Origin: a virus
Virus record (IMG/VR): IMGVR_UViG_3300046683_000606
Location: 4,570 to 68,569 of that record
Direction: 5' to 3' (one strand)
Length of the DNA stretch: 64,000 nucleotides
The position numbers and the translations under genes are program-made. The notes under the pieces were generated by a model. That model was not told where the DNA came from and made no database searches. It was given only the letters and a program-made list of their open reading frames with translations. Positions 10,287 to 57,123 of the stretch are shown piece after piece (within the stretch, counting starts at the first letter, position 1; the number at the start of each line of letters is the position of its first letter).

Positions 10287-10973
10287 ATGCCGACGTACCC
10301 CACAGGAAGCGGCGGAAACACTCCCGTACCACTCCTTCAACCTGGAGTCCCAGGTTACGCTTTCGGTTCTCTGAACAAACGTTTCCCGACTACCCTCCTG
10401 CAGATCACCAACGTCGCGCTTACCAGCAACGTCGCCACGGTCACTGTGACCATACGCAGAGGCGCCGTTCCTATCGCTGGCAATCTGATTTCAATTACTG
10501 GGACAGCCGGAGCGAGCGGCGCATTCAACGTTTCGAACATTGCAATTTCAACAGTCTCGATCGATTCCGTTACGGGGATTGGAACGATCACTTTCCCGCT
10601 TACCCATGCCGATGTGGGGAGCGCTGCGGATGCTGGACAGGGCTACGTACCGCCGGCCGAAGTCGCGGAAACCCTGGCAGTCCAGAAAAGCCAAGCCTTT
10701 GCGATTCAGGATTCGATCGGGAGAGGATACGGAATCACTTGGGCCTACACTTGTCCGTCTGCTCCTTCGACAATTTCGATTCAGCTTGAGGGCGCGGTAA
10801 ACAACAACGACGCGGAATTTACGGCTATCGGTTCGGCAGTCACCACGACGACCGGCTACAACGAGCAAATTGCCCAACTTCCTAACCTAGTGAATTTCGT
10901 TCGCCTGAGAGTTACCGCGACGACCGGCGGAAGCGCTCCTACGATTGTCGGAAAAATCACTCTGGGGAGTTAA
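10287..10973 (+). CDS. Putative virion structural protein, paralogue A
   Basis: Beta-rich, T/S/A/G-rich, no signal peptide; near-collinear with 13710-14390 (LLQPGVxGYAFGS..FPTTLL). Confidence 0.6.
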   Translation: MPTYPTGSGGNTPVPLLQPGVPGYAFGSLNKRFPTTLLQITNVALTSNVATVTVTIRRGAVPIAGNLISITGTAGASGAFNVSNIAISTVSIDSVTGIGTITFPLTHADVGSAADAGQGYVPPAEVAETLAVQKSQAFAIQDSIGRGYGITWAYTCPSAPSTISIQLEGAVNNNDAEFTAIGSAVTTTTGYNEQIAQLPNLVNFVRLRVTATTGGSAPTIVGKITLGS

Positions 10974-13646
10974 TTGCGAAGGCTCTTATGGGTTGCCGCT
11001 CTATTTCTAAACGGTTGCGCTGGTGGTCCCTATGACGTTCATGTGCCTGGAGAACAAGGCTCAATGCCGCCAGTAATCTCTAATCTGGTCTACACGGTAA
11101 CCGATACCACTATTGTCGCTACGTGGACTACGGACACTTCCTCGGATTCAAATCTATCAGCAGGCGGTAAAGCAGCAGTAGATAATGGGTTGGCAGCAAA
11201 TTCCACTAGTCACCAAGCTATCGTAGCCGGTCTAGCTCCAAGCACGCTTTATTCCTGCATTGTGACTTCAGGAGGAACCAGCAGCTCTCCGCAGAACGTC
11301 ACAACTTCCGTGGCACATTCAACAACGCCAATTACAGTTGTTGGTTTTGGAACTGACCACGTCACCACGGCAGATGGCGACATCACCTATAATTTCCTTT
11401 CCAACGACAACATCACGTACATGATGCGTGACGATGCCAAAACTCCTCCTGGTGGCGCAGGATTTAACCAGCAGATGGATACAGTTACGAATGAATCCAC
11501 GTTGGCTCTTTCTCTTGTCAATGGAATGAGTGCTTATGGAGCTTACGCCACGGAAAATGGTACGGATGGGCCAGCCGGTCATACACTGTCGAACAAGGGA
11601 AACGGTTTATTCGGCATGGCTGGTTCGCTTTTTTGGTTTACTGGACGGCACTATATTGTCGGTTCATCACGACAGCAGTACTACGGCAACGTTATCCGTT
11701 CAGATGACCACGGTGCAACTTGGAGTAATTTCAGCGCACCAACTACGTTCAATGCCAATGGTGTTCCTTACTATCCCAACAGCGGCAGCAATTCGATAGC
11801 TCCATTCTTTTTTGGCGCGGATTCCACCTTCGGTTGGGTGACTCCGGTTAGATATGCCGGAGACGATGGCACGCTTGGATACAACACGGCTGGCAACGGA
11901 TTCAGCGGCGGGAACGCTTACGTTTATTTTGCCATTCTCAATGGTCCAAACGATGCTGCCAACAATATTTATCTGGGCCGTATTCCGCGTATTAGTTTGT
12001 TTAGTTTGGATCGCACGGCAGAACAATTCTGGATTGGACCGACTTCGCCTACCGACGCAGATTTTGTTAACGATGCGAATTGGCAGTCTGCTTCAACTGG
12101 GCTTACTTCGATCTATACGCCGGCGACTACAACCGTGGGTTGGCCGGATATTTGTTTTATTCCTACCATAAATCGCTACTTACTATTCAGTACCTACCGC
12201 CCCAGCACTGCTTCAACTTCCAACACGATTTGGAGAGTCTTGGAAGGTCCAACTCCGGCTGGGCCGTGGACTCTTGTCGGAACCATACAAAACAGTCCCA
12301 GCGGCTGGTATTGCCAGACCATCCTACATCGCACTGCTGCAAGTAATGTCTTGACCGACAACATCCCACTGACTGTCGTTTATTCCGGTGATTTCAACAA
12401 TCAGATTCCCTATTACCATCCGACCTACAGTACTTTGACGGTTTCTACATCTCCACAATCACCAGTTACCAATGTCTTTGTGCAGGCCAAGGGAACTACG
12501 GCGGCACAATCTGGCACAACGGGAACGCTTGCTTACACCTCCAATGTGACCAGTGGAAATTTGCTGGTTACTTCGTGGCGCTACAATGGCAGCGGTGCAG
12601 TGCATCTGACTTCCGTTACCAGCACACGTACCACGGGGAATTGGACCATTGTATACGACCAAAGCGATGGCGCCGCAACGCCTATTCAGGGTGGTTGGGC
12701 TTACGCTTGGGCTACCTCGACAGGCGCTTGCACTGTTACTTTGAATTTTAATACTTCGGTAGTTGGAATCGATATTTGTGTTGGTGAATGGAACGGACCC
12801 ACTACAGTACGTACAACCTCTGCCCCTCGTATAAATGTCAGTCAAAATATCCCTTTCAGTTCAAGCATACCCGTACAAGGTGGAGATTTATTGATTGGCG
12901 TGGTCACTCTGGGGGCTGCTAGTAGTCAAACACTGTCCGCGGGGAGTGGCTACGTCCAGAGAGCGCATGCCATTACTGGCGGCGTAACGGATTTCACGGC
13001 TATTGAAGATAATCTTAACGCAACTCTCGGATTTTCTACTGCAACTTTCAATGTCATTCCAAGTGGTGGCGGCATTTCGTCCACTGTGGGCATTGGAGCC
13101 TTCTACTCCCAAGGGATTATTTCGGGGAATGCCGGTGTATCCGGGGCGACCGTGGCATGGACTTCGGTAAGCTCCGGTTCGGGTTCAACCACTTCGGACG
13201 GCTCCGGCAACTATTCCACGTCAAGTTTAGCTTCCGACGTTTACACGATCACTCCGACAAAAACTGGCTACAGCTTCACTCCAACCAGCGTCCAGCAAGT
13301 GATGATTAGCGCCAACGTAAATGGCGTGAATTTCACGGCGACACACTTGCCGGTGTCCACCCCTTCGATTTCACCGAATGGAGGGAATTTTGATTCTCCT
13401 CAAACGGTAACCGTGAGCGATACGGATTCAGGGCTCGCTGGCTTTGCGATGTACTACACGACGGATGGGACTACGCCTACCACGGGTTCCACGCTTTACA
13501 CTGCACCGATCGCGGTAACCACTTCCTTGACTTTAAAAGTCTTGGCGGTGGCTACGGGCTTTCTCAATAGTGCGGTTGCTTCGGCTACTTTCAACATTGT
13601 CCGCGGCGGTGGCGGTCTCGGATACAGATTTACTTATGGCTTTTGA
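10974..13646 (+). CDS. Putative lipoprotein: FN3-like, Asp-box beta-propeller, carboxypeptidase-regulatory-like and CHB_HEX_C-like domains
   Basis: MRRLLWVAALFLNGC signal/lipobox-like; RSDDHGATW Asp-box; YTITPTKTGYSFTP; YYTTDGTTPT..STLYTAPI. Confidence 0.7.
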   Translation: MRRLLWVAALFLNGCAGGPYDVHVPGEQGSMPPVISNLVYTVTDTTIVATWTTDTSSDSNLSAGGKAAVDNGLAANSTSHQAIVAGLAPSTLYSCIVTSGGTSSSPQNVTTSVAHSTTPITVVGFGTDHVTTADGDITYNFLSNDNITYMMRDDAKTPPGGAGFNQQMDTVTNESTLALSLVNGMSAYGAYATENGTDGPAGHTLSNKGNGLFGMAGSLFWFTGRHYIVGSSRQQYYGNVIRSDDHGATWSNFSAPTTFNANGVPYYPNSGSNSIAPFFFGADSTFGWVTPVRYAGDDGTLGYNTAGNGFSGGNAYVYFAILNGPNDAANNIYLGRIPRISLFSLDRTAEQFWIGPTSPTDADFVNDANWQSASTGLTSIYTPATTTVGWPDICFIPTINRYLLFSTYRPSTASTSNTIWRVLEGPTPAGPWTLVGTIQNSPSGWYCQTILHRTAASNVLTDNIPLTVVYSGDFNNQIPYYHPTYSTLTVSTSPQSPVTNVFVQAKGTTAAQSGTTGTLAYTSNVTSGNLLVTSWRYNGSGAVHLTSVTSTRTTGNWTIVYDQSDGAATPIQGGWAYAWATSTGACTVTLNFNTSVVGIDICVGEWNGPTTVRTTSAPRINVSQNIPFSSSIPVQGGDLLIGVVTLGAASSQTLSAGSGYVQRAHAITGGVTDFTAIEDNLNATLGFSTATFNVIPSGGGISSTVGIGAFYSQGIISGNAGVSGATVAWTSVSSGSGSTTSDGSGNYSTSSLASDVYTITPTKTGYSFTPTSVQQVMISANVNGVNFTATHLPVSTPSISPNGGNFDSPQTVTVSDTDSGLAGFAMYYTTDGTTPTTGSTLYTAPIAVTTSLTLKVLAVATGFLNSAVASATFNIVRGGGGLGYRFTYGF

Positions 13647-13709
13647 ACCGTGATATAGTGCCCCACAAGCGGAATCGGGCCGCACCGAATTGTCTTGGAG
13701 CCTGATTCT

Positions 13710-14390
13710 ATGCCGCCATACGAATTTTCGCCCGGTGTGAATGAACAACCGAAACTGCTGCAGCCTGGAGTTACCGGCTACGCTTTCGGCTCTTTCGATT
13801 CGAAGTTTCCCACCACACTTCTAAAGATTCTTACCGTCGCCATTTCCAGCAACGTTGCGACGATCACGGCAACCATCCGTGAAGGGAAAGTTCCGACGGT
13901 TGGAAGTCTGATTACCATTCGCGGAACGACAACTGCCGGCGGCTCTTTCAACGTTCTCAATGTCGCGATTGCCACGGTTCTCTTTGACTCCGTGACCGGA
14001 ATCGGTGTGATTACTTTTTCTCTTGTCGATGCCGATGTGGGAGCGGTAGCCGATACGGGAATGGGCTATGTGCCCATGCCTGAAATTGGAGAGGCTTGCG
14101 CTAACGGCGCGAGCGTAGCCTTTGCCATTCAGGACATTGCCGGCCACAACGATAACGGTCTCACGGTCCAGTGGAGTACTTCCTACCCGTCTTCTCCGGC
14201 AATTATGACCGCCATCTTGCAAGGCGCTGACTTCGACGCGGACGATCAGTACATAGAAATCGATCGAAGCACTAGCCTACCGTCGGATAGCCGTTCCAGC
14301 ACGCAGACCAGATTCCGGTTTCTTCGCGTGCTGTGGCAAGACTTGGCGGGTGGAACGAATCCTACAGGTATTGTGCGAATCAACATTTGA
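13710..14390 (+). CDS. Putative virion structural protein, paralogue B
   Basis: SD ggag before ATG 13710; aligns by eye over its full length with 10287-10973. Confidence 0.6.
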   Translation: MPPYEFSPGVNEQPKLLQPGVTGYAFGSFDSKFPTTLLKILTVAISSNVATITATIREGKVPTVGSLITIRGTTTAGGSFNVLNVAIATVLFDSVTGIGVITFSLVDADVGAVADTGMGYVPMPEIGEACANGASVAFAIQDIAGHNDNGLTVQWSTSYPSSPAIMTAILQGADFDADDQYIEIDRSTSLPSDSRSSTQTRFRFLRVLWQDLAGGTNPTGIVRINI

Positions 14391-14398
14391 GGCTGACG

Positions 14399-17131
14399 AT
14401 GAAAAAGACTTTTCTCATATTGTTGTTCTTGCTTGGTGCGCTTCCCGCATTCGGCCAATACCGTCAACCGATCTCGACGCATACCAATGCTGAGGGGAAA
14501 GTTGACTACATAGACTTCCGCGTGTCCGATCTTGAAAAGCCGGAAGCCTCTCCGTCTCCGGCAGTTTCAATCCAGAAAGCGGGAATTTTCGATTTTCAAT
14601 GTACCGCTACGCCTACCAATCCTCCGACCGGCAATGATCGCTTTTACTGCGACTCTGGAACGGGGAACATGGCTTGCCTCACTTCAAGTGGAGCGAATTG
14701 TTTGCCTGGTGGTGGTGGCGGCGGTGGCTCTGGAACGGTAACCAGTGTCGGTCTTGCGGCTCCTGGCGGAATGGTGGTTTCAGGTTCTCCGGTGATTGGC
14801 GCTGGAACGCTTACCTGGGGTATGCCGGCGGGATGGAGTCTAGGAGACTTGCTGGTTGGGAATGGAGCTAATTCAGTCGCGCGCCTTGCTGCTCCGACAA
14901 CTCCCGACGGTGTTCCGGAAACGCTGATTTCAACGCCTTCGGGCGGCGCGGTGGCGCCGGCCTACGCTCTAACTGGACTGGCTGGCCGGGTAGTTTCTGG
15001 AACAACCGACACGATTCTGGCAACTGACCGTTCGCCAAAGACAGTTGAGTACACAAGTAACTCAGCGGTGGCGGTCACGGTGCCCGACCCTGGCAGCGCT
15101 GGTTTTCTTACGAATCCGGCCTTCATTACAGTTGCCGAAGGCGGCGGAGAGGTTACCTTCACTCCGCAAACGACAGCGGTCATTACTTGGTGCAATGGGG
15201 CAGTTTGTTTTCCAGGCCAAACGTCACTCGCTCTGACGACTGGACAAATCGGCAACTGGTCTTCTCCTGATGGCGGGAATTGGCTAGTACGTATAACTTC
15301 GACTGGCAGCGGTGGCGGAGCGCCAATCTTTAATAACCAGTGTCTTTCTGGCTGCGGGGTGGTGTGGACCGGCCTTCTCAATTTCACGGTATCCGCTTCA
15401 AGGTACAACATCGTAAGTACGCTGTATTCGTCTCCGCAAACGAATCTAACTCTATCGGCGGCTGACCCTTCTAACCCGCGCATTGATGTGATCGCGGTGA
15501 ATACTTCTGGCGCCGCGGTAGTGATTACCGGAACGCCGGCTGGCAGTCCTTCGGCTCCGACCGTTGACCCTCTTACCCAGTTAGCTCTTACTTTCGTTAC
15601 CGTCCCTGCAGGTTCTACGACTCCAACGATTACCAGTATCACCGTTTACGATGAGAACTTGACTCCTCCGACTGAATGGACCTGTTCTGGAACACCGGCT
15701 TTTACTTGCGGCTCGACCAACAACCCATTCCATTTGACAAAAGACGTGGAAGTGACCGGCGCGACAAGCGGTGGGAATGCCCTGTTCACCAACAGCGGCG
15801 CAATCAGCCTTGCCGGGTACACTGCACTTTCTTTCAACATCCGCAACAAGGCCGTGTGGAATAGCAACGGCTCGATTGCAATTTGTTTTTTGAATAGTTC
15901 GACGATTGTCGGCCAGTGTGTCGGTTTCAAGAATGGAGTTTTTGGATTTAACCAGACGAATCTTACCAGCTATCAACAGATCGTGATTCCCCTTGGGGCT
16001 TTCGGCCTAACTGGGAACGTGGACAGATTGCGCTTCCAATACAGCGGTGGCGGCACGGTTGGGTACTATCTCGACTGGATACAGATTCAGAGCACCCCGA
16101 CAAGCGGTGGCGGCAATTCCAATACTTTCCAGTTACAGGTAAACAGCGTCAACACTGCTGCTACTGCAAACCTGAAAGACAATGCCAGCGTAACCTTCAC
16201 GCGCACTCCGACCGCGGCCGGGATAGATGACGTGACCGCTACGGCTATCGGAGCGCCAGCGTCCGGCGCGGCTGGCGGAGCCCTGGCGGGAACCTATCCT
16301 AATCCCACTCTTTCGGGTGCAACTTCTTGCACCAATCAAGTAATAACCGCAATCAGCCAAAGCACCGCGATAGGAACCTGTTCTAGCGTCTCCAATGCCA
16401 TGCTCACTAATACAGCGACGACCGCCAACGGACAGACCTGTACCCTTGGTTCCACTTGCAACGTGAACGTTGGCGCTTCGGCACACAGCGTTGCAATCAA
16501 TCAGGGAAACGGCTCGGCTCTTACTGGCGTTGGTCCTGGCTCGACTACGGGAAAAATTCTGCAATCGGTTGCCAGTGCCGATCCTGCTTACAACGATTTC
16601 CCAGACACGAAAATTGTTCCGGCTGCGAATTGTCCCAACGCAACAGCGGGAAGCGGCTGGAGCTACGCGGCCGCCACATGGTCGGCAGCTTGCCGTGCGG
16701 GGAGTAACAACCTAGGCGGCGCTTTGCAGTTGATTCCTTCAACCGGAGGAGCGGCACAGTTCCGTTTTGAGATTCCCGCTGATTGGGATTCCGCTTCGCA
16801 GCCATTCATTCGAATCGAGTACGGTTCTGGAGCCAACACAAGCGGCACGGTCATTTGGACGGTGGCGAGCGCTTGCACTAAGGCCGACGGATCGGTTACC
16901 GATGACCCGGCCTTTGTTGCGGAGTCCGCTTTTGGCACTCAGACGATGGCTGCCGCGAGTCGCGCTTGGTCCCAGACCGGACAATTCACAGGGATAACCA
17001 GCGGGAACAACTGCGTGGCCGGAGGGGGAATGATTATCAAGCTCACGCTCTCCGGAACGGCGTCGAGCGCGATCAATGCTTATCAGGCGGTTGTGACGAC
17101 AAACAGACTTCCCGCGGTACAGGCGAATTGA
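14399..17131 (+). CDS. Tail-fibre-like protein with Sec signal peptide
   Basis: MKKTFLILLFLLGALPAFG-Q signal; fibre-type motifs GTVTSVGL..GSPV..GTL, ADPSNPRIDVI, GGALAGTYPNPTL; many Cys pairs. Confidence 0.7.
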   Translation: MKKTFLILLFLLGALPAFGQYRQPISTHTNAEGKVDYIDFRVSDLEKPEASPSPAVSIQKAGIFDFQCTATPTNPPTGNDRFYCDSGTGNMACLTSSGANCLPGGGGGGGSGTVTSVGLAAPGGMVVSGSPVIGAGTLTWGMPAGWSLGDLLVGNGANSVARLAAPTTPDGVPETLISTPSGGAVAPAYALTGLAGRVVSGTTDTILATDRSPKTVEYTSNSAVAVTVPDPGSAGFLTNPAFITVAEGGGEVTFTPQTTAVITWCNGAVCFPGQTSLALTTGQIGNWSSPDGGNWLVRITSTGSGGGAPIFNNQCLSGCGVVWTGLLNFTVSASRYNIVSTLYSSPQTNLTLSAADPSNPRIDVIAVNTSGAAVVITGTPAGSPSAPTVDPLTQLALTFVTVPAGSTTPTITSITVYDENLTPPTEWTCSGTPAFTCGSTNNPFHLTKDVEVTGATSGGNALFTNSGAISLAGYTALSFNIRNKAVWNSNGSIAICFLNSSTIVGQCVGFKNGVFGFNQTNLTSYQQIVIPLGAFGLTGNVDRLRFQYSGGGTVGYYLDWIQIQSTPTSGGGNSNTFQLQVNSVNTAATANLKDNASVTFTRTPTAAGIDDVTATAIGAPASGAAGGALAGTYPNPTLSGATSCTNQVITAISQSTAIGTCSSVSNAMLTNTATTANGQTCTLGSTCNVNVGASAHSVAINQGNGSALTGVGPGSTTGKILQSVASADPAYNDFPDTKIVPAANCPNATAGSGWSYAAATWSAACRAGSNNLGGALQLIPSTGGAAQFRFEIPADWDSASQPFIRIEYGSGANTSGTVIWTVASACTKADGSVTDDPAFVAESAFGTQTMAAASRAWSQTGQFTGITSGNNCVAGGGMIIKLTLSGTASSAINAYQAVVTTNRLPAVQAN

Positions 17132-18492
17132 TGAAAAAATATATTCTTCTCTCCATGCTTCTGCTTGGTGTTGGTCAATTACGGGCGGCGACTGGCCCTT
17201 ATACCTCCAACGAGTGTGGCAAACCTCTCCAGAACGCAGGTGGCTTCACAAGCATATCGTGTACGATGGCGAACACCGTAGCCGGCCGCGCCATTCTCAT
17301 GTATGCGTCGGGAGCGGCCACGACTGTATCCGTCACAAGTTCTCCAGAAACCCCTACTGCTTGCTTTAACGGGACGAACGCTACAAACGGTTGGCAGACA
17401 ACGGGTTGCTATCTATTTCCTTCGTCCAATCATGCGATCTTCACGATTACCGCAACATCCTCTGGGGGATTCAATCGCGTTTTATGGGTAGCGGGAAGGG
17501 AAAAAATCGGACTAACCGCTTTCGACACGCATTGCAGCGCCGGAGCCACTTCGTGTTCTTTGACTACAGCCAACGCTGGTGAATGGCTGGACTTGGGCGG
17601 AGCCGATCTTGCCAACGATCTGACTCCTCACACTGGCTTTAGCCAAGAGCAATGGGGAACCACTGATGTGGACATTAGTTCGCAAACGATTAAATTTGCT
17701 TCCTGGTCGCAGATTACAGGCGGGGCTGGAAGTACCACGGCGCAATATGATGAGGTAAATCCTTTCGGAGTTCCTTCCGTCGTGGCTATGGCCTTTACGC
17801 AAAGCAATCCGGCAAAACCAGCGGTCTATAAAGCACAAAGCTGTTATTTCAACTGGCCGAACACTACGCGCACAGGTCCGACTTGCACCCTCCACAACTA
17901 TACCGCTAACAATACAATCGTATATGGGTTCTCCGATGGATTCGATCCCATTGACATCATTTCGTGTCTCGGCACAGGTTGCAGTTGCCCTAGCAATGCT
18001 CGAAACGCTCCGCATGTCTATGCAGGTATAAACGTTCAAGCGGGTTTGTGCACTGCTTCTCAAAGTAGCAACCAATCCACTTACTCCGTAGGGATTCTCA
18101 TGCACGGCGGTTTAGGGCAAACAGTTTTCTTTATACAAGGGGCGGAATGGGTTGGACTAACGGGCGTCTTGGATGCTGGTTCGGAAACTTCCGCATTGGC
18201 GCTGACTACTTCCTATACCACTGCCGGAGCTAACGAACAAACTTTTTCGGTCTGTTACGATGCCGACACTAATCCTCTCGTACCGAATAGCGGCGAACTG
18301 CAAATAGCAGGGAGTACGGACGTGAATACGTCTTTTGTTGCCAACGACCAGCAACTTACGCAGTCCATTCTCACCGCTGCTGCCGGAAGCAACACGACCA
18401 GTTGCACTATGTCATCGGGAAGCGTTCGACCAATCATTGCAACTTTTTCAATGGGGATTACACCGGCATCTGGCTATCCGATGATTTTTTAG
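17131..18492 (+). CDS. Secreted Cys/Ser/Thr-rich protein with two tandem beta domains
   Basis: MKKYILLSMLLLGVGQLRA signal; internal duplication (EKIGLTAFD..LTTANAGE / EWVGLTGVLD..YTTAGANE). Confidence 0.65.
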   Translation: MKKYILLSMLLLGVGQLRAATGPYTSNECGKPLQNAGGFTSISCTMANTVAGRAILMYASGAATTVSVTSSPETPTACFNGTNATNGWQTTGCYLFPSSNHAIFTITATSSGGFNRVLWVAGREKIGLTAFDTHCSAGATSCSLTTANAGEWLDLGGADLANDLTPHTGFSQEQWGTTDVDISSQTIKFASWSQITGGAGSTTAQYDEVNPFGVPSVVAMAFTQSNPAKPAVYKAQSCYFNWPNTTRTGPTCTLHNYTANNTIVYGFSDGFDPIDIISCLGTGCSCPSNARNAPHVYAGINVQAGLCTASQSSNQSTYSVGILMHGGLGQTVFFIQGAEWVGLTGVLDAGSETSALALTTSYTTAGANEQTFSVCYDADTNPLVPNSGELQIAGSTDVNTSFVANDQQLTQSILTAAAGSNTTSCTMSSGSVRPIIATFSMGITPASGYPMIF

Positions 18493-18498
18493 GAAATT

Positions 18499-21400
18499 AT
18501 GAAACCACTTAGCAAATGGCTTCTGCTTACGGGCGTCCTGCTCGGCGCCGTGCTCACTTTCATGCTTCTCTGGAAGCACCAACAGCCAAAGCATCCGGTT
18601 GCTAGAACCATAGCGAAGGGTAAATTCATAGCGAAGTTGGGTTCGGGCTGGTTTGTGCGCTCGTCAACGGCTTGTCCTACAAATGGAAATGGTACTTCTT
18701 CAAGTTGCGCGGCTTCTCCTGGTGGAGCGGGAGCCTGGTCGGGATTCGCCAATATCGGTTGGGGTTCGATTCATGCCGGCGACACATTGTCAATGCAAGC
18801 CGGAGACACCTACGCGGAGCAGTTGACGATCGGCGCATCCGGAACCAGCGGAAGCCCTATCACCATCACGGTAAATGGCGTCGGGACGGCCATTATAGAC
18901 GGCGGCAACGCTCGTACTGGATTTAGTTTCAACGGCCAATCCTTCGTAAACGTGGACGGTGTGACGGGCAACGCAGCGTTCGGCGGTTCTCAGACCTACG
19001 GAATCCGTGTTATCAACATCGGCCTTCCAAACTACTGTGCCTACATAAACAACGGGGAGCAGCACGTAAAATTCCTTCACGTCGAGTGCTCCGGCAACGG
19101 GCAGAACACGGACAACGCGCATCTCAACGCTCCTCCACTACCTGATGATAACCGCGGCGGTGTTTTCGGCGGTGGTGGCGCTCATTTCGTAGAAGTCGCC
19201 TACAACTGGTTCCATACGCAGATGGCGCAATACAATCTTTCCACCTGCAGCATTTCAGGAACGACTTATACCTGCACGACGACGACGACGATCACAGACA
19301 CCCATTGGACTTCGCCTTCGGTGATTTTTGCTAGTATCGGTATTTACGGCAACACTGGAGTCAACGGTCACTGCGGCCTGATTAGCGCCAGTGGAACCAC
19401 GTTTACCTGCGAAGGCGGCGGCTCCGGTACAGGTACGGGTGGCGTGGCGGTCATGGAATGGGCGGCGACGGCGGTCACTGGATTTTTTGCTACGGGAAGT
19501 ACGAATTACAACGACAACACAACCCACGATAACTTCGCCTATGGCACGTTCAATGATGGCTTTCGCTCTAACGGAAATGGCCAGATTTATCACAACGAAG
19601 CACAAGCCGGTATGGGCTCCGGCCATAGCGATGCGACCCTGGCTCAATCCGCTCTTTACGTAGAAATATCCAGCAACTACGTCCATGACTGGAACGACCA
19701 AAATTGTTACCTGGACCAACTATCGGCAGCGTCCAGAGGGCACATTCGCATTTTCAACAATGTCTGGAACTCTCCTCACGGATTTGGCGGATGCAACGTA
19801 GACCCCGAAGGCGCTTCGGCCAACTGGGACGACATTGTGATGATTAACAACACGTCCTATTCGTCGAGAGATTATGTCGTTCGCTACGGCAACCAGGGCG
19901 GCACGGTAACCAACTTCGTATATATCAACAACATTTCCCGCGTCTCCGGTTCGGTTGGCGATCCGCCGTGGGCGGGTGGTGGCGGGATTGCCTTCGCCAG
20001 TTCCACGGCCTACAACTACAACCTGTACTCCCCTACGCTTGGAGTGCAATTTCCAATCTTGGCAAATTTCAGCGGCGGGAATAAGACACTGGCGCAACTT
20101 CGGGCACTCTCTCCACCCCGCGAACTGAATGGCAATACCTGCGACGTGACCTATGTTGGCGGTGCACTCCCGGCCGGCGCTCAACCTGCCTCTACCGACA
20201 CTTGCTCTAAAAATGCCGGTCAGAATCTCACGGCTATCTATCCATTTGCCACTGTGGATTTTAATGGAGTTACCCGGCCTCCGACTGCTGCATGGGATTC
20301 AGGCGCAATGCAGGCTTCCGGCGGCGGTGGTGGAACGCCCGTTATCGGATTTTCTCCTAACCCGGCAGCATTCGGAAACCAGATTCAGGGAACGACCAGC
20401 GCTCCTCTTACGATTACCGTTTCAAACAGCGGAACGGCCGCGCAGGTTCTTTCTACGCCTTACTGGACAATCACCGGGACGAATGCCAGTAACTTTGCCA
20501 ACGCGGGAACGGGAACCTGCGTCAACGGTGGGACTATCGCGATCAGCGGTTCTTGTACGGTGAACCTGACTTTCACTCCATCGGCTACCGGCGCACGAAC
20601 GGCTACGTTCAACATTCAAGGCACGGTCAATGCTTCGGACAACCTAACTGGCACCGGCACCCTTCCGACTATCGGTCTTGCGCCAAGCCCTGCAGCTTTC
20701 GGCAACCAGGTTGTTGGCACGCCAAGCTCGCCGTTGACGGTCACGGTTTCGAATACCGGCACGTCTACACAGACTTTAGCTAATCCGTACTTCACCATTA
20801 CCGGAACAAATTCCGCGGACTTCTCAAATCTGGGAACGGGTACATGCGCTAACGGCGGTTCTGTTCCAGCAAGCAGTTCTTGCACGATCAACCTGCGATT
20901 CACTCCCGCGGCGGCCGGCGCGCGCACAGCGACTCTAAATCTCCTAGGCACGGTCAATGCTTCTGACTCTCTGACCGGGACAGGCACGCAAGCGGCAATC
21001 AGCATCACGCCAAGCCCCGGAGCCTTCGGAAACCAGAACGTCAACACAACCAGCGGACCACTTACGCTGACGGTTACCAATACCGGGACAGCCACAGAGA
21101 CTCTAGCAACGCCTTATTTCACCCTGACCGGAACCAATTCGACCAACTTCGCCAATGCTGGTAGCGGGACATGCGCCAATGGGGGAACGATCGCTCCTTC
21201 GGCTACTTGTACGGTGAACTTGACGTTTACTCCGTCCGCGGCCGGCGCGCGCTCTGGAACCTTGAACATCCTGGGAACGGTGAATGGAACTGACGCGCTG
21301 ACCGGCACAGGTATCGCTCCCCTGGTCTCTTTGAGCCCGAATAGCATAGCCTTTGCGAACCAGACCACTAACACGTCGAGCGGGAACCAGGCTGTAACCC

Positions 21401-23934
21401 TAACCAATACAGGGACGGCAACGCTGCATATTTCCAGCATTACCTTGGTCGGAGCCAATGCCGCGGAGTTTTCAACCAATAGCAGCACATGCGGCGCGAC
21501 TCTTACCGCCGGCGCTTCCTGCTCCTTGAATGTGGTTTTTACGCCTACGACTGTGGGCAGCAAATCGGCCAATTTGACGTTCACTACTGACGCGGCAACA
21601 AGCCCGGATAGTGTGGCGCTCACTGGTACTGGAGTCGTTCCAGCGGTTCCAGTACTTAGTTTCTCTCCCAGTCCTGGCGCCTTCGGGAACCAACTGCAGA
21701 ACACGACCAGCGCGGGATTAACGATCACGGTCTCAAACATTGGTACTGGTCCAGAAGTTCTTTCAACTCCCTTCTTCACCATCACCGGAGCGAATGGCAG
21801 CGACTTCGCCCGGTCTGGAGGGACGTGCGTCAACGGCGGCGCGATTGTGGTTAGCGGCTCTTGTACGGTCATTTTGACTTTCACTCCGGCGGCTACGGGT
21901 AGCAGGACCGGAACACTCAACATTTCAGGGACGGCTAACGGCTCAAACGTCCTGACCGGGACGGGGATTCAGCCGATTATCGGGTTGTCTCCTTCACCTG
22001 TAGCCTTTGGGAATCAACTGCAAGGCACCACAAGCGCTCCCTTGACCGTAACCGTGTCCAATAGCGGTACTGGGACTGAAACGCTGGCAACGCCCTTCTT
22101 TACGATTACGGGAACCAACGCTTCAAACTTTGCGCGGAGCGGGGGAACCTGCGTCAATGCCGGCACCATCGCGCCAAGCGCTTCCTGCACCATCATCCTA
22201 ACCTTTACGCCTTCGGCTACAGGAGCCCGTAGCGCGACTTTAACGGTCCAGGGTACGGTAAACGCCACGGACTCCCTAACAGGCACCGGCACGCTCCCCG
22301 CTATTGCGCTGTCGCCTAGTCCTGTGGCCTTCAGCAATCAAAATCTGAACACTACCAGTTCACCGCTGACGGTGACCGTATCGAATACGGGTACAGCTTC
22401 CGAAGTCTTGGCGACTCCCTATTTCACGATCACCGGAACCAATTCCACAAACTTCGCGAATGCCGGGACAGGTTCATGCGCCAATGGCGGGACGGTTGCC
22501 GCAAGCTCGTCTTGCACAATCAATCTGACCTTTACCCCTTCGGCTACCGGGGCTCGTACTGGCGTCTTGAACGTCCTAGGTACGGTCAACGCCACGGCAA
22601 ACATTACCGGGACAGGGGTAGCCGCGGTCGTGTCGCTCAACCCGACTACGATCGCCTTTGGCAATCAGACGACTTCAACCTCCAGCGGGAACCATTTGGA
22701 GACTTTGACTAACACCGGCAACGGCACGCTAACCATTTCGAGTATCGCTCTGACCGGCGCGGATTCAGGACAATTCTCGACCAACGGAAGCACTTGCGGC
22801 GCGACACTGGCGGCCGCTGCTTCTTGCTCGCTTAACGTGGTATTCAGCCCGACTACGATCGGAGCGAAAGCGGCAAGCCTGACATTCTCAACAAGCGCGG
22901 CCAGTAGTCCAGACAACGTAACTCTAAGCGGAACGGGTGTTTCCGCCGGTGTCCCTGTTCTAAGTTTTTCGCCTACTCCGGCTGACTTTGGGAGTCAGGC
23001 GGTAGCAACAACTGGTCCTCCGCTGACAATCACGGTAACCAACATCGGAACGGCTGCGGAAGTCTTGAGCACGCCTTACTTTACGATCGGTGGAGCGAAC
23101 GGAACGAACTTCGCGAATACAGCGGGTGGAACTTGCGTCAACGGGGGCACTATCGCGGCCAACGGTGCTTCCTGCACGATTGTGCTGACGTTTACTCCAA
23201 CCGCGCTCGGTACTAGGTCTGGGAGCCTGACTATCGTGGGAACGGTAAATGGAACGAATCCTTTGACTGGGATCGGCACAGGCACAGGCACTCTTTCTCT
23301 CAATCCTACGAGCATCGCCTTTGGTAACCAGGACAGCGGAACGTCCAGCAATCCGCGCTCGGTCATCTTGACCAATACCGGAACCTTAACGCTGACAATT
23401 TCGAGCATTGCCTTGACCGGAACGAACGCAAATCAGTTCTCGATCGATACCAATACCTGTGGCGCGACTTTGGCGGTTTCAGCTTCCTGCTCATGGAATG
23501 TGGTGTTCTCGCCTAACTTGGTGCAAAGCAATACGGCCAGCGTAACGATAACCAGCACCGCGACGAGCAGTCCAGACAATGTCCCGCTGACCGGAACGGG
23601 CAGGAGTCCTACGCCTCCGTCTACCCCGGCGCCGGCCATTGTGATTGTGCGCGCCTTCCCAACTGGGAGCGTGCTGGTGGCAGAGAATGTAGGAGTCACG
23701 CCAAAGAACTTTCAAGTGTCCTCAACTGGTTGCTCTCAGGATGGAGTCAATTTCCAGAATCCATGCCGGTTCGCGATTAGTTGCGGAAACTGCGGAAGAC
23801 AAACCACGGCCAGATTTAACGGAACGGCGGTAAGCCAGTCTTTTTCGAAAGGAACGGTTACAGTCAGTGTGCCGATCACTCTTTTCACCATGCCGGCACT
23901 GCCGACTGAATATCAAATCTCGCTGCTGAATTGA
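18499..23934 (+). CDS. Membrane-anchored or secreted beta-helix protein with ten ASH/choice-of-anchor-D-like Ig repeats
   Basis: N-terminal hydrophobic segment; AGDTL..YAEQL and Asn-rich beta-helix; DFNGVTRP...WDSGA motif; ten ~108-aa repeats. Confidence 0.8.
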   Translation: MKPLSKWLLLTGVLLGAVLTFMLLWKHQQPKHPVARTIAKGKFIAKLGSGWFVRSSTACPTNGNGTSSSCAASPGGAGAWSGFANIGWGSIHAGDTLSMQAGDTYAEQLTIGASGTSGSPITITVNGVGTAIIDGGNARTGFSFNGQSFVNVDGVTGNAAFGGSQTYGIRVINIGLPNYCAYINNGEQHVKFLHVECSGNGQNTDNAHLNAPPLPDDNRGGVFGGGGAHFVEVAYNWFHTQMAQYNLSTCSISGTTYTCTTTTTITDTHWTSPSVIFASIGIYGNTGVNGHCGLISASGTTFTCEGGGSGTGTGGVAVMEWAATAVTGFFATGSTNYNDNTTHDNFAYGTFNDGFRSNGNGQIYHNEAQAGMGSGHSDATLAQSALYVEISSNYVHDWNDQNCYLDQLSAASRGHIRIFNNVWNSPHGFGGCNVDPEGASANWDDIVMINNTSYSSRDYVVRYGNQGGTVTNFVYINNISRVSGSVGDPPWAGGGGIAFASSTAYNYNLYSPTLGVQFPILANFSGGNKTLAQLRALSPPRELNGNTCDVTYVGGALPAGAQPASTDTCSKNAGQNLTAIYPFATVDFNGVTRPPTAAWDSGAMQASGGGGGTPVIGFSPNPAAFGNQIQGTTSAPLTITVSNSGTAAQVLSTPYWTITGTNASNFANAGTGTCVNGGTIAISGSCTVNLTFTPSATGARTATFNIQGTVNASDNLTGTGTLPTIGLAPSPAAFGNQVVGTPSSPLTVTVSNTGTSTQTLANPYFTITGTNSADFSNLGTGTCANGGSVPASSSCTINLRFTPAAAGARTATLNLLGTVNASDSLTGTGTQAAISITPSPGAFGNQNVNTTSGPLTLTVTNTGTATETLATPYFTLTGTNSTNFANAGSGTCANGGTIAPSATCTVNLTFTPSAAGARSGTLNILGTVNGTDALTGTGIAPLVSLSPNSIAFANQTTNTSSGNQAVTLTNTGTATLHISSITLVGANAAEFSTNSSTCGATLTAGASCSLNVVFTPTTVGSKSANLTFTTDAATSPDSVALTGTGVVPAVPVLSFSPSPGAFGNQLQNTTSAGLTITVSNIGTGPEVLSTPFFTITGANGSDFARSGGTCVNGGAIVVSGSCTVILTFTPAATGSRTGTLNISGTANGSNVLTGTGIQPIIGLSPSPVAFGNQLQGTTSAPLTVTVSNSGTGTETLATPFFTITGTNASNFARSGGTCVNAGTIAPSASCTIILTFTPSATGARSATLTVQGTVNATDSLTGTGTLPAIALSPSPVAFSNQNLNTTSSPLTVTVSNTGTASEVLATPYFTITGTNSTNFANAGTGSCANGGTVAASSSCTINLTFTPSATGARTGVLNVLGTVNATANITGTGVAAVVSLNPTTIAFGNQTTSTSSGNHLETLTNTGNGTLTISSIALTGADSGQFSTNGSTCGATLAAAASCSLNVVFSPTTIGAKAASLTFSTSAASSPDNVTLSGTGVSAGVPVLSFSPTPADFGSQAVATTGPPLTITVTNIGTAAEVLSTPYFTIGGANGTNFANTAGGTCVNGGTIAANGASCTIVLTFTPTALGTRSGSLTIVGTVNGTNPLTGIGTGTGTLSLNPTSIAFGNQDSGTSSNPRSVILTNTGTLTLTISSIALTGTNANQFSIDTNTCGATLAVSASCSWNVVFSPNLVQSNTASVTITSTATSSPDNVPLTGTGRSPTPPSTPAPAIVIVRAFPTGSVLVAENVGVTPKNFQVSSTGCSQDGVNFQNPCRFAISCGNCGRQTTARFNGTAVSQSFSKGTVTVSVPITLFTMPALPTEYQISLLN
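20332..23601 (+). repeat. Ten tandem Ig-like coding repeats, order AAAB-AAAB-AB
   Basis: Each unit: SP..AFGNQ...TVSNTG...C...SC...FTP...LTGTG; type A has STP(Y/F)FTITG, type B has ISSI.L.G and SPD.V. Confidence 0.9.
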
Positions 23935-23940
23935 GGATGA

Positions 23941-24309
23941 ATGGACGCCAACATTGTAATGACGCAAGTGACCATGAGTACTTTGTTTGCCGGTGCTCTG
24001 GCATTTGCAAAATCAAAAGCATGGGTTCCTTTCTTTAACAAACATTCAGCCACGATCAACCACGTATTTCTGGGAGTGACTTCTCTAGGCTCGGCTCTGG
24101 GTATTCACGCGCTTTGGAATGGAACGGACCATTCTCTGCTCATTGTCGGATTGTCTCCGTTGACAATCGCGCACGGCATTTGGGAGTGGACAAAGCAGTG
24201 GTGTCTGCAATACTTGGTTCAACGCGGTGCGTTCGGTCCGGTTTCCATCCCTGGCGATGCTCCGGCCGTTCCTTCTACTCCGGTAAAGGCGGGAGAGACG
24301 AAGGACTGA
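23941..24309 (+). CDS. Small multi-pass membrane protein, holin candidate
   Basis: Two to three hydrophobic segments, charged C-terminus, end of late operon. Confidence 0.45.
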   Translation: MDANIVMTQVTMSTLFAGALAFAKSKAWVPFFNKHSATINHVFLGVTSLGSALGIHALWNGTDHSLLIVGLSPLTIAHGIWEWTKQWCLQYLVQRGAFGPVSIPGDAPAVPSTPVKAGETKD

Positions 24310-25340: not shown

Positions 25341-25766
25341 TTAGATTGGCCGGTAGAATCTCAGCCGTCCGATGTTGAGACTGTTAACGTAGTCAGATTC
25401 TTTTCCCCACGCCTTCGGCCATCCCATGCTCGTATCGTGGTAGAACGTGGCGCCGTCCGTATTGTCCGGCTCATCTCCTACCAGGACAGCCGAAGCCGCC
25501 GACAAGCAATCTATCCAAGCGGGAGTCGCTTCATCTTCCGGCCACACTTCGGAGTTAGGATCGTTCGCGTTGAAAGAAGAAAACTGCCAAGGCTTGAGAA
25601 TCACACTGGCTACGTCGTGGCCCCACCATCCCGGCTGATTGACGCGGTTTCTAATTACATGACACACAGCGCGTTTGCCGTAGAGCGTTTCTCCGCGCGC
25701 TTCGCGATAACAGCACAAAGCCATTAGAGCAACATCGGAAAGCTCTCCGTAGGGTTGGGATTCCAT
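25341..25766 (-). CDS. Cell wall hydrolase, SleB/Hydrolase_2 family (endolysin candidate)
   Basis: YREARGE, AVCHVIRNRV, QFSSFN, TDGATFYH, IGRLRFY; SD aaggagg. Confidence 0.9.
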   Translation of the reverse strand: MESQPYGELSDVALMALCCYREARGETLYGKRAVCHVIRNRVNQPGWWGHDVASVILKPWQFSSFNANDPNSEVWPEDEATPAWIDCLSAASAVLVGDEPDNTDGATFYHDTSMGWPKAWGKESDYVNSLNIGRLRFYRPI

Positions 25767-25783
25767 ACACCCTCCTTCCAATT

Positions 25784-25822
25784 AAAAAGGCAAGCGCCGG
25801 GGTTGGGTAAGCGCTTGCCTTT
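25784..25822 (-). terminator. Hairpin terminator/attenuator upstream of the hydrolase gene
   Basis: 12-bp perfect stem aaaggcaagcgc/gcgcttgccttt with T-run on minus strand. Confidence 0.65.
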
Positions 25823-25851
25823 GGCGGTGCGGCACTACTGGGGAAAAGCGT

Positions 25852-26649: not shown

Positions 26650-26659
26650 CGGTTATCCC

Positions 26660-56301: not shown

Positions 56302-57123
56302 ATGCCAAGCATCCCGCAACTCGGTTTTCCGGTCATGGACGAAGTGATGCAACTGGTCCGTTCGCTGGTCAACGATACTTTTCCTGGGATTTTGGGAGCG
56401 CAAGGCAGAATCTTCACCAACAACGCGCAATTCACTATTCCGCTGTTTAATTCGGCTTACCGCAAACTGCAACGCAAACTGCGAACCGAAGGCGCGACAT
56501 TCCCAATCAAGGATAACGTCCAACTGCTGAACCTGACTCCGGTGGTCGCGCAAAATACCAACGTCCAGACCTACGTCGATTTTAACGGCTACTTCGACGG
56601 TACGACCATGCACGACACTCCGAAGCTGCCTAGTGATCTTCTGCAGCCGTATGTCGTCGAGGAGCAAACGGTAGGCACTGGATTCCCGTTTGTTCCGATG
56701 GCTCAACCGGCCGAAGGGCTCCCGTCGGTGCTGCAAGGCTCCATGCTAGAAATGTGGGAATGGCGGAACTACAAGATTTATATGGTCGGCTCGATCGTTA
56801 CCAAGAATCTGCGTATCCGCTATCAGTATTCGAATGTGCCGCTGAACGTTCCTGCAGCCGATTTTGACGTGACTTCGGTTCCGATAATCGATTGTCAGGA
56901 TGCTCTGGCGAACTACATTGCGGCCATGTTTGGAAGGGCGCGCGGAGCCAATCCTCAAGCGGTCGCGGCGCTCGAAGCTGCCGGCGATGACGCCATGAAC
57001 GATATGGCTTTTGAGTATGTTCGCCGCGCTCAAACGGTCACTTACCGTCGTCCGGCTTACGGTAGCGGCGGCTCAAACGATGGTGGCAATGGAACGCTTG
57101 GCCAGACCGGATGGGGCGCTTAA
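56302..57123 (+). CDS. Head-tail adaptor protein
   Basis: VRSLVND, FNSAYRKLQ, LPSDLL, LRIRY, DALANYIAA layout of podoviral adaptors; position. Confidence 0.65.
   Translation: MPSIPQLGFPVMDEVMQLVRSLVNDTFPGILGAQGRIFTNNAQFTIPLFNSAYRKLQRKLRTEGATFPIKDNVQLLNLTPVVAQNTNVQTYVDFNGYFDGTTMHDTPKLPSDLLQPYVVEEQTVGTGFPFVPMAQPAEGLPSVLQGSMLEMWEWRNYKIYMVGSIVTKNLRIRYQYSNVPLNVPAADFDVTSVPIIDCQDALANYIAAMFGRARGANPQAVAALEAAGDDAMNDMAFEYVRRAQTVTYRRPAYGSGGSNDGGNGTLGQTGWGA

What the first reader, a model, noticed from the sequence alone, without database searches (positions are those of the whole stretch)
10974..23934. Exported, disulfide-rich fibre-like proteins in a phage structural region
Seen: four large genes begin with export signals (lipobox-like LNGC at 10974, Sec-type signals at 14399 and 17131, TM anchor at 18499), and three are rich in paired Cys. 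The 14399 protein shares the GTVTS..GSPV..G repeat (about 14726-14820) with the signal-less fibre at 57123 and carries GGALAGTYPNPTL. Established: tailed-phage virions assemble in the cytoplasm, and fibres normally lack signal peptides and disulfides. Inference: either receptor-binding appendages fold in the periplasm and join virions at lysis, or the phage builds an adhesin coat on the infected cell from fibre parts. With the adjacent glycan operon this is the best candidate for an undescribed system.
Basis: partly seen in the sequence, partly recalled or inferred. Interest (0 to 1): 0.82.

Follow-up and report, generated by a model that had tools for sequence, protein, structure and literature searches.

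The report
Phage fibre-like proteins with export signals
An uncultured 68-kb tailed phage encodes four consecutive large late proteins, built from the kinds of parts phages use to recognise and digest the host surface, that carry bacterial secretion signals and paired cysteines, so they very probably work outside the cytoplasm where the virus particle is built.

Summary
Genes at 10974, 14399, 17131 and 18499 begin with a lipoprotein signal, two Sec-type signals and a 19-residue membrane anchor. No head or tail protein of the genome does.

The signals are conserved:
- 16 of 16 aligned relatives of the 14399 protein have a signal ending small-x-small|Q.
- Relatives of the 17131 protein that keep their N-terminus have one too.
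- The lipoprotein leader of the 10974 protein recurs almost unchanged on relatives only 45% identical.
- In 17 of 18 signal-bearing proteins of this phage group the mature part has an even number of Cys, against 11 of 20 signal-less neighbours.

The 14399 family has a conserved N-terminal 640 residues and mosaic C-termini, as receptor-binding proteins do. The 10974 core looks like a DUF4185 glycosidase propeller. The 18499 protein has ten choice-of-anchor D domains.

Export is well supported. Where the proteins end up is not shown. My best reading (0.45) is that they bind or cut host surface glycan from the envelope. The rival (0.25) is that they are virion fibres joining particles at lysis.

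This scan has noted the same pattern on other DNA many times. I found no paper describing it.

The parts
10287..10973 (+). A: 228-aa signal-less protein heading the block; jelly-roll with an inserted beta-barrel
   Evidence: AF2 mean pLDDT 84.9. VIA-align: XepA C-domain Z 11.2 (rmsd 2.2, 96 aligned) and YomS Z 10.8. The barrel (residues 36-120) is homologous to residues 720-798 of the 1520-aa nozzle-like protein, hhalign probability 94.6%, E 6.9e-8. 245 homologues, none on a contig longer than about 68 kb.
10974..11063 (+). 90-nt leader of B: lipoprotein signal plus linker, absent from the closest relative
   Evidence: Alignment with L002 shows an exact 90-nt insertion or deletion between the stop of A and the ATG of B. 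The same leader and linker occur on P0215, P0216, P0229 and P0253, whose bodies are about 45% identical to B.
10974..13646 (+). B: 890-aa lipoprotein-type protein: Fn3-like, DUF4185-like propeller, beta-sandwich, CarboxypepD_reg, CHB_HEX_C
   Evidence: Pfam. Atlas structure search TM 0.75/0.84 to DUF4185 clusters. C-terminal modules are shared with signal-less proteins after A-like genes in L003, L007, L010 and L012.
13710..14390 (+). C: paralogue of A (46% identity), always directly upstream of D-type genes
   Evidence: BLASTP E 2e-61. A C-type gene precedes the D-type gene in the window, L002, L003, L038 and L039, 5 of 5 loci with a D N-terminus.
14399..17131 (+). D: 910-aa Sec-signal, Cys-paired, fibre-like protein with a conserved N-terminal 640 aa and a mosaic C-terminus
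   Evidence: 16 of 16 have a signal with Q at +1; invariant C68, C84, C93, C265, C429, C437, C496, C507. The central domain 313-565 is shared with both signal-bearing and signal-less fibre-like proteins.
14726..14794 (+). Fibre repeat unit of D shared with the signal-less fibre at 57111
   Evidence: BLASTP 13/23 identical, E 0.002. phmmer links D 93-225 to the signal-less fibre L005 8565-9236 at E 3.5e-7.
17131..18492 (+). E: 453-aa Sec-signal protein with 14 Cys and no known domain; its start overlaps D's stop by 1 nt
   Evidence: 38 representative relatives, of which 20 are flagged with signals; most of the rest are N-terminally truncated.
18499..23934 (+). F: 1811-aa protein with an N-terminal anchor (residues 7-25), a 570-aa N-domain of unverified fold, 10 choice-of-anchor D Ig-like domains and a Cys-rich end
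   Evidence: NCBIfam NF012200, 10 stretches, E 1.4e-167. Pfam ASH/Cep192_D4. Transmembrane scan. Homologues in L005, L038 and L039 have cleavable signals instead.
23941..24309 (+). 122-aa moderately hydrophobic protein ending the late operon (possible holin, not supported by my scan)
   Evidence: No family hit. No 19-residue segment at KD 1.6 or more. A 65%-identical homologue follows the F-like gene in L038.
57111..58133 (+). Signal-less 340-aa fibre next to the nozzle-like gene; 1 Cys
   Evidence: Weak PHROG tail-fibre hit, E 0.0011. Shares the repeat with D.
60899..61135 (+). Beta-barrel in the 1520-aa nozzle-like protein homologous to the barrel of A and C
   Evidence: hhalign probability 94.6%, E 6.9e-8, 38% identity over 79 columns.

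Best explanation
B, D, E and F are genuine late phage proteins that leave the cytoplasm by the host Sec pathway. B is then lipid-anchored, F is membrane-anchored or, in relatives, cleaved, and D and E are cleaved and soluble. D, E and F fold with disulfide bonds in the envelope.

They are assembled from the module types that phages use on virions to bind and cut surface polysaccharide: fibre repeats, mosaic tips, a DUF4185-like glycosidase and Ig-like stalks. Here these modules are delivered to the infected cell's own envelope.

The most likely job is to bind or degrade the host's surface glycan or receptor from within, late in infection. That would keep progeny from being trapped on the lysing cell, its debris and its matrix, and would keep further phages from adsorbing.

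Shown: the signals, their conservation, the Cys signature, the modular make-up and the late-operon position. Inferred: the final location, the target and the benefit.
For: Signals confined to these four consecutive genes:
- No head or tail protein of the genome carries one.

Signals conserved:
- 16 of 16 D relatives.
- 20 of 38 E representatives, with most of the rest truncated.
- B's leader is conserved on bodies 45% identical.
- F homologues have an anchor or a cleavable signal in L003, L005, L038 and L039.

Cys signature:
- Even mature Cys count in 17 of 18 signal-bearing proteins against 11 of 20 signal-less ones.
- Median Cys 2.24% against 0.76%; Mann-Whitney p 6e-6, rows not independent.

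Anchors and route:
- A lipid anchor on B and a 19-residue anchor on F would hold these two at a membrane, which fits envelope residence and not virion incorporation.
- B's signal is optional among close relatives: L002 lacks it and most of the 81 relatives lack it. This fits an enzyme whose delivery route can change.

Context:
- B's core resembles DUF4185 propellers.
- The genes are tightly packed at the end of the late operon with no excess of promoter-like sites: 5 against 10.0 +/- 2.6 in shuffles.
- The phage has a signal-less fibre beside the nozzle gene that can serve as the virion's own receptor binder.
- The same genome carries an early PEP-CTERM-type exported protein (first-reader note e1-6181851, not tested) and a nine-gene glycan operon. 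A wider programme aimed at the envelope is therefore plausible.

Precedents read:
- PBSX XepA is made late, is exported and is absent from particles (PMC6834076, passages).
- Porphyromonas phages carry signal-peptide genes read as envelope modifiers (PMC10367356, passages).
- 5% of prophage CAZymes have signal peptides (PMC13507307, passages).
Against: - No experiment or trained predictor supports the location.
- D and E have no enzyme or known binding domain.
- A C-type paralogue of the virion-like protein A sits directly upstream of every D-type gene (5 of 5 loci). That is what a virion adaptor and its fibre would look like.
- In L038 and L039 every large protein between the A/C-like gene and the end of the operon carries a signal. 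Those phages therefore show no signal-less spike in this block.
- Late expression suits exclusion of other phages poorly.
- About 13 kb (19% of the genome) is a heavy investment for an accessory function.
- F's flanking charges do not clearly favour an N-in orientation.
Confidence: 0.45

Rival explanations
1. D, and perhaps E and the cleaved F forms, are true virion receptor-binding fibres. They are exported, disulfide-folded in the periplasm, and attach to cytoplasmically built particles through A/C-type proteins only when the inner membrane is breached at lysis.
For: - D has the classic receptor-binding layout: a conserved N-terminal 640 aa and swapped C-termini.
- It shares a fibre repeat with signal-less fibres.
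- Structural neighbours of its central domain are mostly viral tail proteins, TM 0.38-0.56.
- C-type and D-type genes are adjacent in 5 of 5 loci.
- The barrel of A/C is shared with the nozzle-like protein.
- L038 and L039 have only signal-bearing large proteins in the block.
- L005 places a signal-less fibre stub directly before, and overlapping, a signal-bearing protein that carries D's C-terminal domain.
Against: - No such assembly route is known for tailed phages: my seven literature searches found none.
- B's lipid anchor and F's transmembrane anchor would keep them on membranes.
- B works with or without a signal in near-identical contexts.
- The phage has a signal-less fibre at the nozzle.
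- A's best fold match is XepA, a protein reported absent from particles (PMC6834076).
Confidence: 0.25
2. They are secreted carbohydrate-active or matrix-remodelling auxiliary proteins. They feed or reshape the infected cell's surroundings and have no role in adsorption, exclusion or release.
For: - B has a DUF4185-like propeller with CHB_HEX_C and CarboxypepD_reg modules.
- Some B relatives carry an arabinofuranosidase domain.
- Signal peptides occur on 3261 of 64,678 prophage CAZymes (PMC13507307, passages).
- F's repeats are typical of bacterial surface proteins.
Against: - D and E show no enzyme signature.
- D evolves like a receptor binder.
- The genes are translationally coupled to virion-like A/C genes and sit at the fibre position next to the lysis genes.
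- The B core is rare in the Acidobacteriota genomes sampled, 3 of 401, and D's N-terminus was found in no bacterial genome. They are therefore not ordinary host metabolism genes.
Confidence: 0.15
3. The signals are artefacts of start-codon choice or chance hydrophobic N-termini, and the proteins are ordinary cytoplasmic fibres.
For: - B's leader is left out of the source's own gene call (P0206).
- B's body is Cys-poor with an odd count.
- B's start is TTG.
Against: - D, E and F start at ATG with Shine-Dalgarno-like sequences.
- The signals are conserved across relatives while their sequences drift.
- B's leader is conserved as protein on bodies 45% identical.
- The Cys parity contrast holds.
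Confidence: 0.03

Closest known systems
Bdellovibrio bacteriovorus MAT (mosaic adhesive trimer) fibres (Caulton et al. 2024, PMC10769870; passages read)
   Same: MATs are phage-tail-fibre-like proteins with a signal peptide, a conserved beta-rich domain directly after it, and chimeric tips, some with disulfides. D has a signal, a conserved Cys-paired N-domain, a fibre repeat and mosaic C-termini.
   Different: MATs are encoded by a predatory bacterium and displayed on its own surface to bind prey. D is in a phage late operon beside virion-like genes. Homology of D to MAT domains was not tested. D's trimer state is unknown because the AF2 model was poor.
Signal-peptide genes of Porphyromonas gingivalis phages obeying the Bacteroidetes Q rule (Matrishin et al. 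2023, PMC10367356; passages read)
   Same: These are phage genes of unknown function with SPase I signals that expose an N-terminal Gln, read as envelope modifiers. D has Q at +1 in 16 of 16 relatives.
   Different: No fibre-like architecture, Cys pairing or tail-block position is named there. Those are temperate phages of Bacteroidota. Here the host is unknown, with hints of Acidobacteriota.
PBSX XepA / SPbeta YomS (Freitag-Pohl et al. 2019, PMC6834076; abstract and passages read)
   Same: XepA is a late protein encoded between the tail genes and the holin, reported as exported and absent from particles. The jelly-roll of A matches the XepA C-domain and YomS best (Z 11.2 and 10.8).
   Different: XepA has no signal peptide and comes from a monoderm host. 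The match concerns A and C, not B-F. Fold likeness alone does not show shared function.
Receptor-blocking lipoproteins of T5-like and lambdoid phages (Llp, Cor; recalled, no paper read)
   Same: These are phage-encoded lipoproteins, encoded near receptor-binding genes, that act on the infected cell's receptor to stop superinfection and loss of progeny on debris. This is the logic I propose for B.
   Different: They are small proteins without enzyme or fibre modules. B is 890 aa with a glycosidase-like core.
Podovirus tailspikes and fibres with a conserved anchor and swapped distal modules (recalled)
   Same: They occupy the end of the structural operon, evolve as mosaics and carry depolymerase-type domains.
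   Different: Known ones lack signal peptides and assemble in the cytoplasm.

Membership tests
Sec / signal peptidase I signal peptide | Positively charged n-region, hydrophobic h-region of about 7-15 residues, small residues at -3 and -1 | tested here: met
   D and E by inspection. 16 of 16 D relatives. 20 of 38 E representatives flagged, most others truncated. D and E have no 19-residue TM-length segment.
Sec / signal peptidase I signal peptide | Call by a trained predictor (SignalP, DeepTMHMM) or experimental cleavage | not testable with these tools
   No such tool was available. My rule is a crude hydropathy and charge filter.
Lipoprotein (signal peptidase II) signal | Lipobox ending in Cys after a short hydrophobic region | tested here: inconclusive
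   The window has L-N-G-C; Asn at -2 is unusual (consensus recalled). Relatives have L-A-G-C, L-S-G-C and V-T-S-C with the same linker.
Virion receptor-binding fibre or tailspike | Conserved proximal part with mosaic distal part | tested here: met
   D family alignment. B's C-terminal modules are shared with other block proteins.
Virion receptor-binding fibre or tailspike | Sequence or fold likeness to known fibre modules | tested here: inconclusive
   Repeat E 0.002. phmmer 3.5e-7 to a signal-less fibre. PHROG head or unknown hits only. Atlas TM 0.38-0.56. The AF2 model was too poor to search with.
Virion receptor-binding fibre or tailspike | Made without export signal and present in the particle | tested here: not met
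   The first half (no export signal) is not met: all four carry signals or anchors. Presence in particles is not testable here.
Bdellovibrio MAT fibres | Signal peptide followed by a conserved beta-rich domain, fibre and chimeric tip | tested here: inconclusive
   The architecture is analogous in D. Homology to MAT domains was not tested. D is encoded by a phage, not by a predator.
DUF4185 (reported glycoside hydrolase family; function recalled) | Pfam PF13810 match | tested here: not met
   No hit on B at E <= 0.01. 6 of 81 relatives carry a precomputed PF13810.
DUF4185 (reported glycoside hydrolase family; function recalled) | Propeller fold like DUF4185 members | tested here: met
   Atlas structure search: TM 0.75 by query and 0.84 by target over 333 residues. 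Feature score 0.88, below the 0.9 level. Both sides are predicted models. Catalytic residues were not tested.
choice-of-anchor D domain proteins | NF012200 domain repeats | tested here: met
   10 stretches, E 1.4e-167.
choice-of-anchor D domain proteins | C-terminal sorting signal (PEP-CTERM, LPXTG, T9SS; recalled) | not tested
   None is evident by eye at the end of F, and no tool call was made for it.
T5 Llp / Cor receptor-blocking lipoproteins | Small lipoprotein that binds the phage's own receptor | tested here: not met
   B is 890 aa with enzyme-like modules. Receptor binding is not testable.
XepA / YomS | Beta-sandwich fold of the XepA C-domain | tested here: inconclusive
   A model: Z 11.2 and 10.8, above the 7-8 background the tool states. 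No sequence similarity was tested. The pentamer state is unknown.

The most novel reading that the evidence does not exclude
In this phage group the host-recognition fibres (D-type, with E and the cleaved F forms) are exported by Sec, oxidatively folded in the periplasm, and bound to finished particles through the C-type adaptor only when the holin opens the inner membrane. This would be a two-compartment assembly route not described for tailed phages. The dual forms of B (with and without leader) would be a snapshot of a spike moving between the two routes.
Probability: 0.22. Interest if true: 0.9.

Novelty: new variant of a known kind. Interest (0 to 1): 0.62.

Why it matters
Tailed-phage particles are taken to be built wholly in the cytoplasm, and receptor-binding proteins are annotated on that assumption.

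Here a whole family of fibre-like proteins is adapted to the oxidising envelope, with conserved signals, invariant Cys pairs and even Cys counts. One of two things follows:
- Phages re-use their adsorption modules as exported effectors that edit the infected cell's surface. That would be a new class of phage-host interaction in soil bacteria.
- Some virions are finished outside the cytoplasm.

Either way, host-range prediction and "tail fibre" annotation in soil viromes would need to take export into account. The exported, disulfide-stabilised glycan binders and glycosidases may also be useful reagents.

Tried and rejected
Structure of D: AF2 with a 16-row alignment gave mean pLDDT 47.7, so no fold search was made with it.

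Complex of C with D residues 22-170: no verdict (ipSAE 0.00, controls not run). It counts neither way.

PDB sequence searches: nothing usable came from B, D, E, the F N-domain or the B-family profile.

Family searches:
- Pfam at E <= 5 gave nothing for E or the F N-domain, and only a weak DUF4815 hit (0.045) for D.
- The beta-helix reading of the F N-domain therefore rests on my reading of the sequence alone and is unverified.
- NCBIfam named only F's repeats.

Cultured phages:
- tblastn of A, the B core, the F N-domain and the portal found nothing.
- D had one weak Flavobacterium phage hit.
- TerL was 24% identical to Arthrobacter phages.
- No cultured relative or host can therefore be named.

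Own promoters (moron reading): promoter-like and terminator-like sites are not in excess.

Read-through or frameshift joining A to B: A and B are in the same frame in the window, L002 and L006, but not in L003, L007 or L010. Rejected.

Dual start for B: the internal ATG 11064 is kept in all four leader-bearing relatives. It has only a moderate Shine-Dalgarno-like context, read. This is possible but untested.

Prophage or host link:
- The A family matched 1 of 401 Acidobacteriota genomes, and only in part.
- The B profile matched 111 of 401, but nearly all through the common C-terminal Ig-like part.
- Host hints conflict. Bryobacteraceae and Acidobacteria names appear on some relatives. Against that, Q at +1 is described as a Bacteroidota trait (PMC10367356).

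Holin call for 23941-24309: my transmembrane scan does not support it.

Literature: seven searches found no paper describing Sec signals on tailed-phage fibre-like proteins. Supplements were not opened. Those of PMC10367356 and PMC11924767 may list signal-bearing genes that I could not see.
Full report
CONTEXT

The window is bases 4570-68569 of a 68,569-bp IMG/VR virus record that CheckV rates as complete. The late genes run on the + strand in this order:
- small and large terminase (41195 and 44130);
- an 825-aa portal-sized protein;
- a 446-aa capsid-sized protein;
- a 340-aa fibre (57111);
- a 1520-aa nozzle-like protein (58742).

They continue across the record's ends into 594-aa and 1111-aa Cys-free proteins. 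Next comes a nine-gene glycosyltransferase, methyltransferase and epimerase operon (1849-10237). The block in question follows: A (10287), B (10974), C (13710), D (14399), E (17131), F (18499) and a 122-aa protein (23941).

A cell-wall hydrolase (Hydrolase_2), a papain-like peptidase and a lipoprotein lie convergently on the minus strand (25341-27310). No tRNA was found. I found no integrase among the proteins searched.

THE OBSERVATION

- All have Shine-Dalgarno-like sequences at a suitable distance.
- D's stop and E's start share a base.
- The gaps between E and F, and between F and the next gene, are 6 nt each.
- In a whole-genome control no head, tail or internal protein has such an N-terminus.
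- A stricter rule flagged only D among 38 + strand ORFs of at least 150 aa. The rule is therefore specific, though it misses true cases.
- D and E have hydrophobic runs too short for a membrane span, while F has a 19-residue one.

THE SIGNALS ARE REAL CODING FEATURES

D family (84 relatives):
- The 16 that keep the N-terminus all have a signal whose sequence drifts.
- The n-h-c form, a Pro at -5 and a Gln at +1 are invariant.
- Eight Cys are invariant and more are nearly so.

E family (38 representatives at 50% clustering):
- 20 are flagged.
- Most unflagged ones start inside the protein, or show a signal after a mis-called start.

F:
- The L003 homologue has a Gly-rich anchor.
- The L005, L038 and L039 homologues have classical cleavable signals.

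B is different:
- The closest relative (L002; its A is 97% identical) lacks exactly the 90 nt that encode the leader.
- Most of the 81 relatives start at the Met that follows the leader.
- Yet the same lipobox and linker recur on four relatives whose bodies are about 45% identical, and about twenty others carry SPase I-type signals.
- Export of B is therefore a recurrent, selected, but optional state.

CYS SIGNATURE

I compared proteins of the fibre blocks of the window and eight related loci (L002, L003, L005, L010, L012, L038, L039 for the signal-bearing rows; L006, L007, L009 and L013 add signal-less rows).
- The mature parts of 17 of 18 signal-bearing proteins have an even number of Cys. 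B is the exception.
- Only 11 of 20 signal-less ones do.
- Median Cys content is 2.24% against 0.76%.
- The rows include orthologues. I count about ten separate families, all even.
- An excess of even counts is a known mark of exported, disulfide-bonded proteins (recalled; no paper read).
- Disulfides alone would not prove export, because a cultured myophage has a disulfide-linked tail (PMC10811340, title and listing).

WHAT THE PROTEINS ARE MADE OF

B:
- Fn3-like start, then a propeller that the ESM Atlas places with DUF4185 clusters (TM 0.75/0.84).
- Then a beta-sandwich, CarboxypepD_reg and CHB_HEX_C.
- Its C-terminal modules recur in signal-less proteins that follow A-like genes in other phages.

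D:
- A Cys-paired N-domain (22-100), a Gly run and a fibre repeat shared with signal-less fibres.
- A 250-aa central domain (313-565) found in many signal-bearing and signal-less fibre-like proteins. Its predicted-structure neighbours are mostly viral tail proteins at modest TM.
- Mosaic C-termini.
- The C-terminal domain (722-910) was seen only on signal-bearing proteins.

E has no recognisable domain.

F has ten choice-of-anchor D domains, each with one Cys pair.

A and C:
- Signal-less and Cys-poor.
- They fold as a jelly-roll with an inserted barrel (pLDDT 84.9).
- The best matches are the XepA C-domain and YomS (Z 11.2 and 10.8), then phage cement proteins (Z 8-9).
- The barrel is homologous to part of the nozzle-like protein.

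THE PHAGE GROUP

The A family has 245 relatives on contigs of up to about 68 kb. In all ten related loci the A-like gene follows the glycan genes, and a variable large protein comes next.
- That protein is signal-less in L003, L006, L007, L008/L009, L010/L011, L012 and L013.
- A C-type paralogue precedes every D-type gene (window, L002, L003, L038, L039).
- In L038 and L039 it is the only A/C gene, and every large protein after it carries a signal.
- L005 interleaves signal-less fibre stubs with signal-bearing fibre proteins.
- Smaller signal-bearing proteins close the block in L010/L011 and L012.
- No cultured phage is related.

WEIGHING THE READINGS

Export is the part I regard as established short of experiment.

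For the destination, these points favour action at the envelope:
- the membrane anchors on B and F;
- the optional nature of B's signal;
- the presence of a signal-less fibre at the nozzle;
- the XepA precedent, a late exported protein absent from particles (PMC6834076).

These points favour virion fibres that join particles at lysis:
- the strict C-D pairing;
- D's anchor-plus-mosaic-tip layout;
- the loci with only signal-bearing spikes.

I put the readings at 0.45 and 0.25, a purely metabolic or matrix role at 0.15, and artefact at 0.03.

KNOWN WORK AND NOVELTY

Nearest in print:
- Bdellovibrio MAT fibres: Sec signal, conserved N-domain and chimeric tips, but cellular (PMC10769870).
- Signal-peptide genes of Porphyromonas phages (PMC10367356).
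- XepA (PMC6834076).
- The 5% of prophage CAZymes with signals (PMC13507307).

None of these describes fibre-like, Cys-paired, signal-bearing proteins in a tailed-phage tail block. The paper on cultured acidobacterial phages does not mention signal peptides (PMC11924767; abstract and a term search).

Within this scan the pattern has been noted many times on other DNA: 391 notes hold the search words, and look-alikes of D occur in three other genomes. Later checks there priced the virion-route reading at 6 to 30 in 100. These are AI notes, and I took from them only leads to papers.

I class this finding as a new variant of a known kind: exported phage proteins that act on the envelope, here built from receptor-binding modules. 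The two-compartment assembly reading stays open as the bold case.

Noticed in passing
window 63754-63880 and genome 1-127 (outside the window): A 127-bp exact direct repeat lies at the start of the record and 120 bp before its end. This suggests terminal redundancy or a circularly permuted assembly, although the source calls the record linear.
   Followed up: partly
window 10974-11063 versus L002 10688: The source's own gene call for B starts at the internal ATG and drops the lipoprotein leader (P0206). Automatic annotation therefore hides this signal, and the same may be true elsewhere.
   Followed up: yes
window 14459-14461 (D residue 20-21) and relatives: Gln follows the predicted cleavage site in 16 of 16 D relatives and in many signal-bearing B relatives. 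This is the 'Q rule' described for Bacteroidota (PMC10367356). The few organism names on relatives point instead to Acidobacteriota, so the host phylum is unresolved.
   Followed up: partly
window 26660-27310 (-), 25852-26649 (-), 25341-25781 (-): The lysis region pairs a SleB-type cell-wall hydrolase with a papain-family peptidase and a 216-aa protein. That protein's internal start gives a lipobox (I-S-G-C) and two further hydrophobic segments, so it is spanin-like but atypical.
   Followed up: partly
L005 16639-19041: An 800-aa signal-bearing protein made of many copies of a roughly 60-aa fibre repeat follows a 133-aa signal-less fibre stub. This is a cleaner example of a signal-less stub followed by an exported fibre than anything in the window.
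   Followed up: no
L014 (Bryobacteraceae MAG contig, 12 kb): A terminase-like gene is followed within 1 kb by two signal-bearing proteins, one with D's central domain. It may be a small phage-derived element.
   Followed up: no
window 60899-61135: The nozzle-like protein contains a copy of the beta-barrel of A and C. The module has therefore been duplicated between a large tail protein and the small block-heading proteins.
   Followed up: yes
window 18574-18636 (F residues 26-46): The stretch after F's anchor is strongly basic (5 K/R, no D/E) while the N-flank has 2 K/R. The L003 homologue has a Gly-rich, weakly hydrophobic anchor, reminiscent of signal-arrest-release domains (recalled).
   Followed up: no
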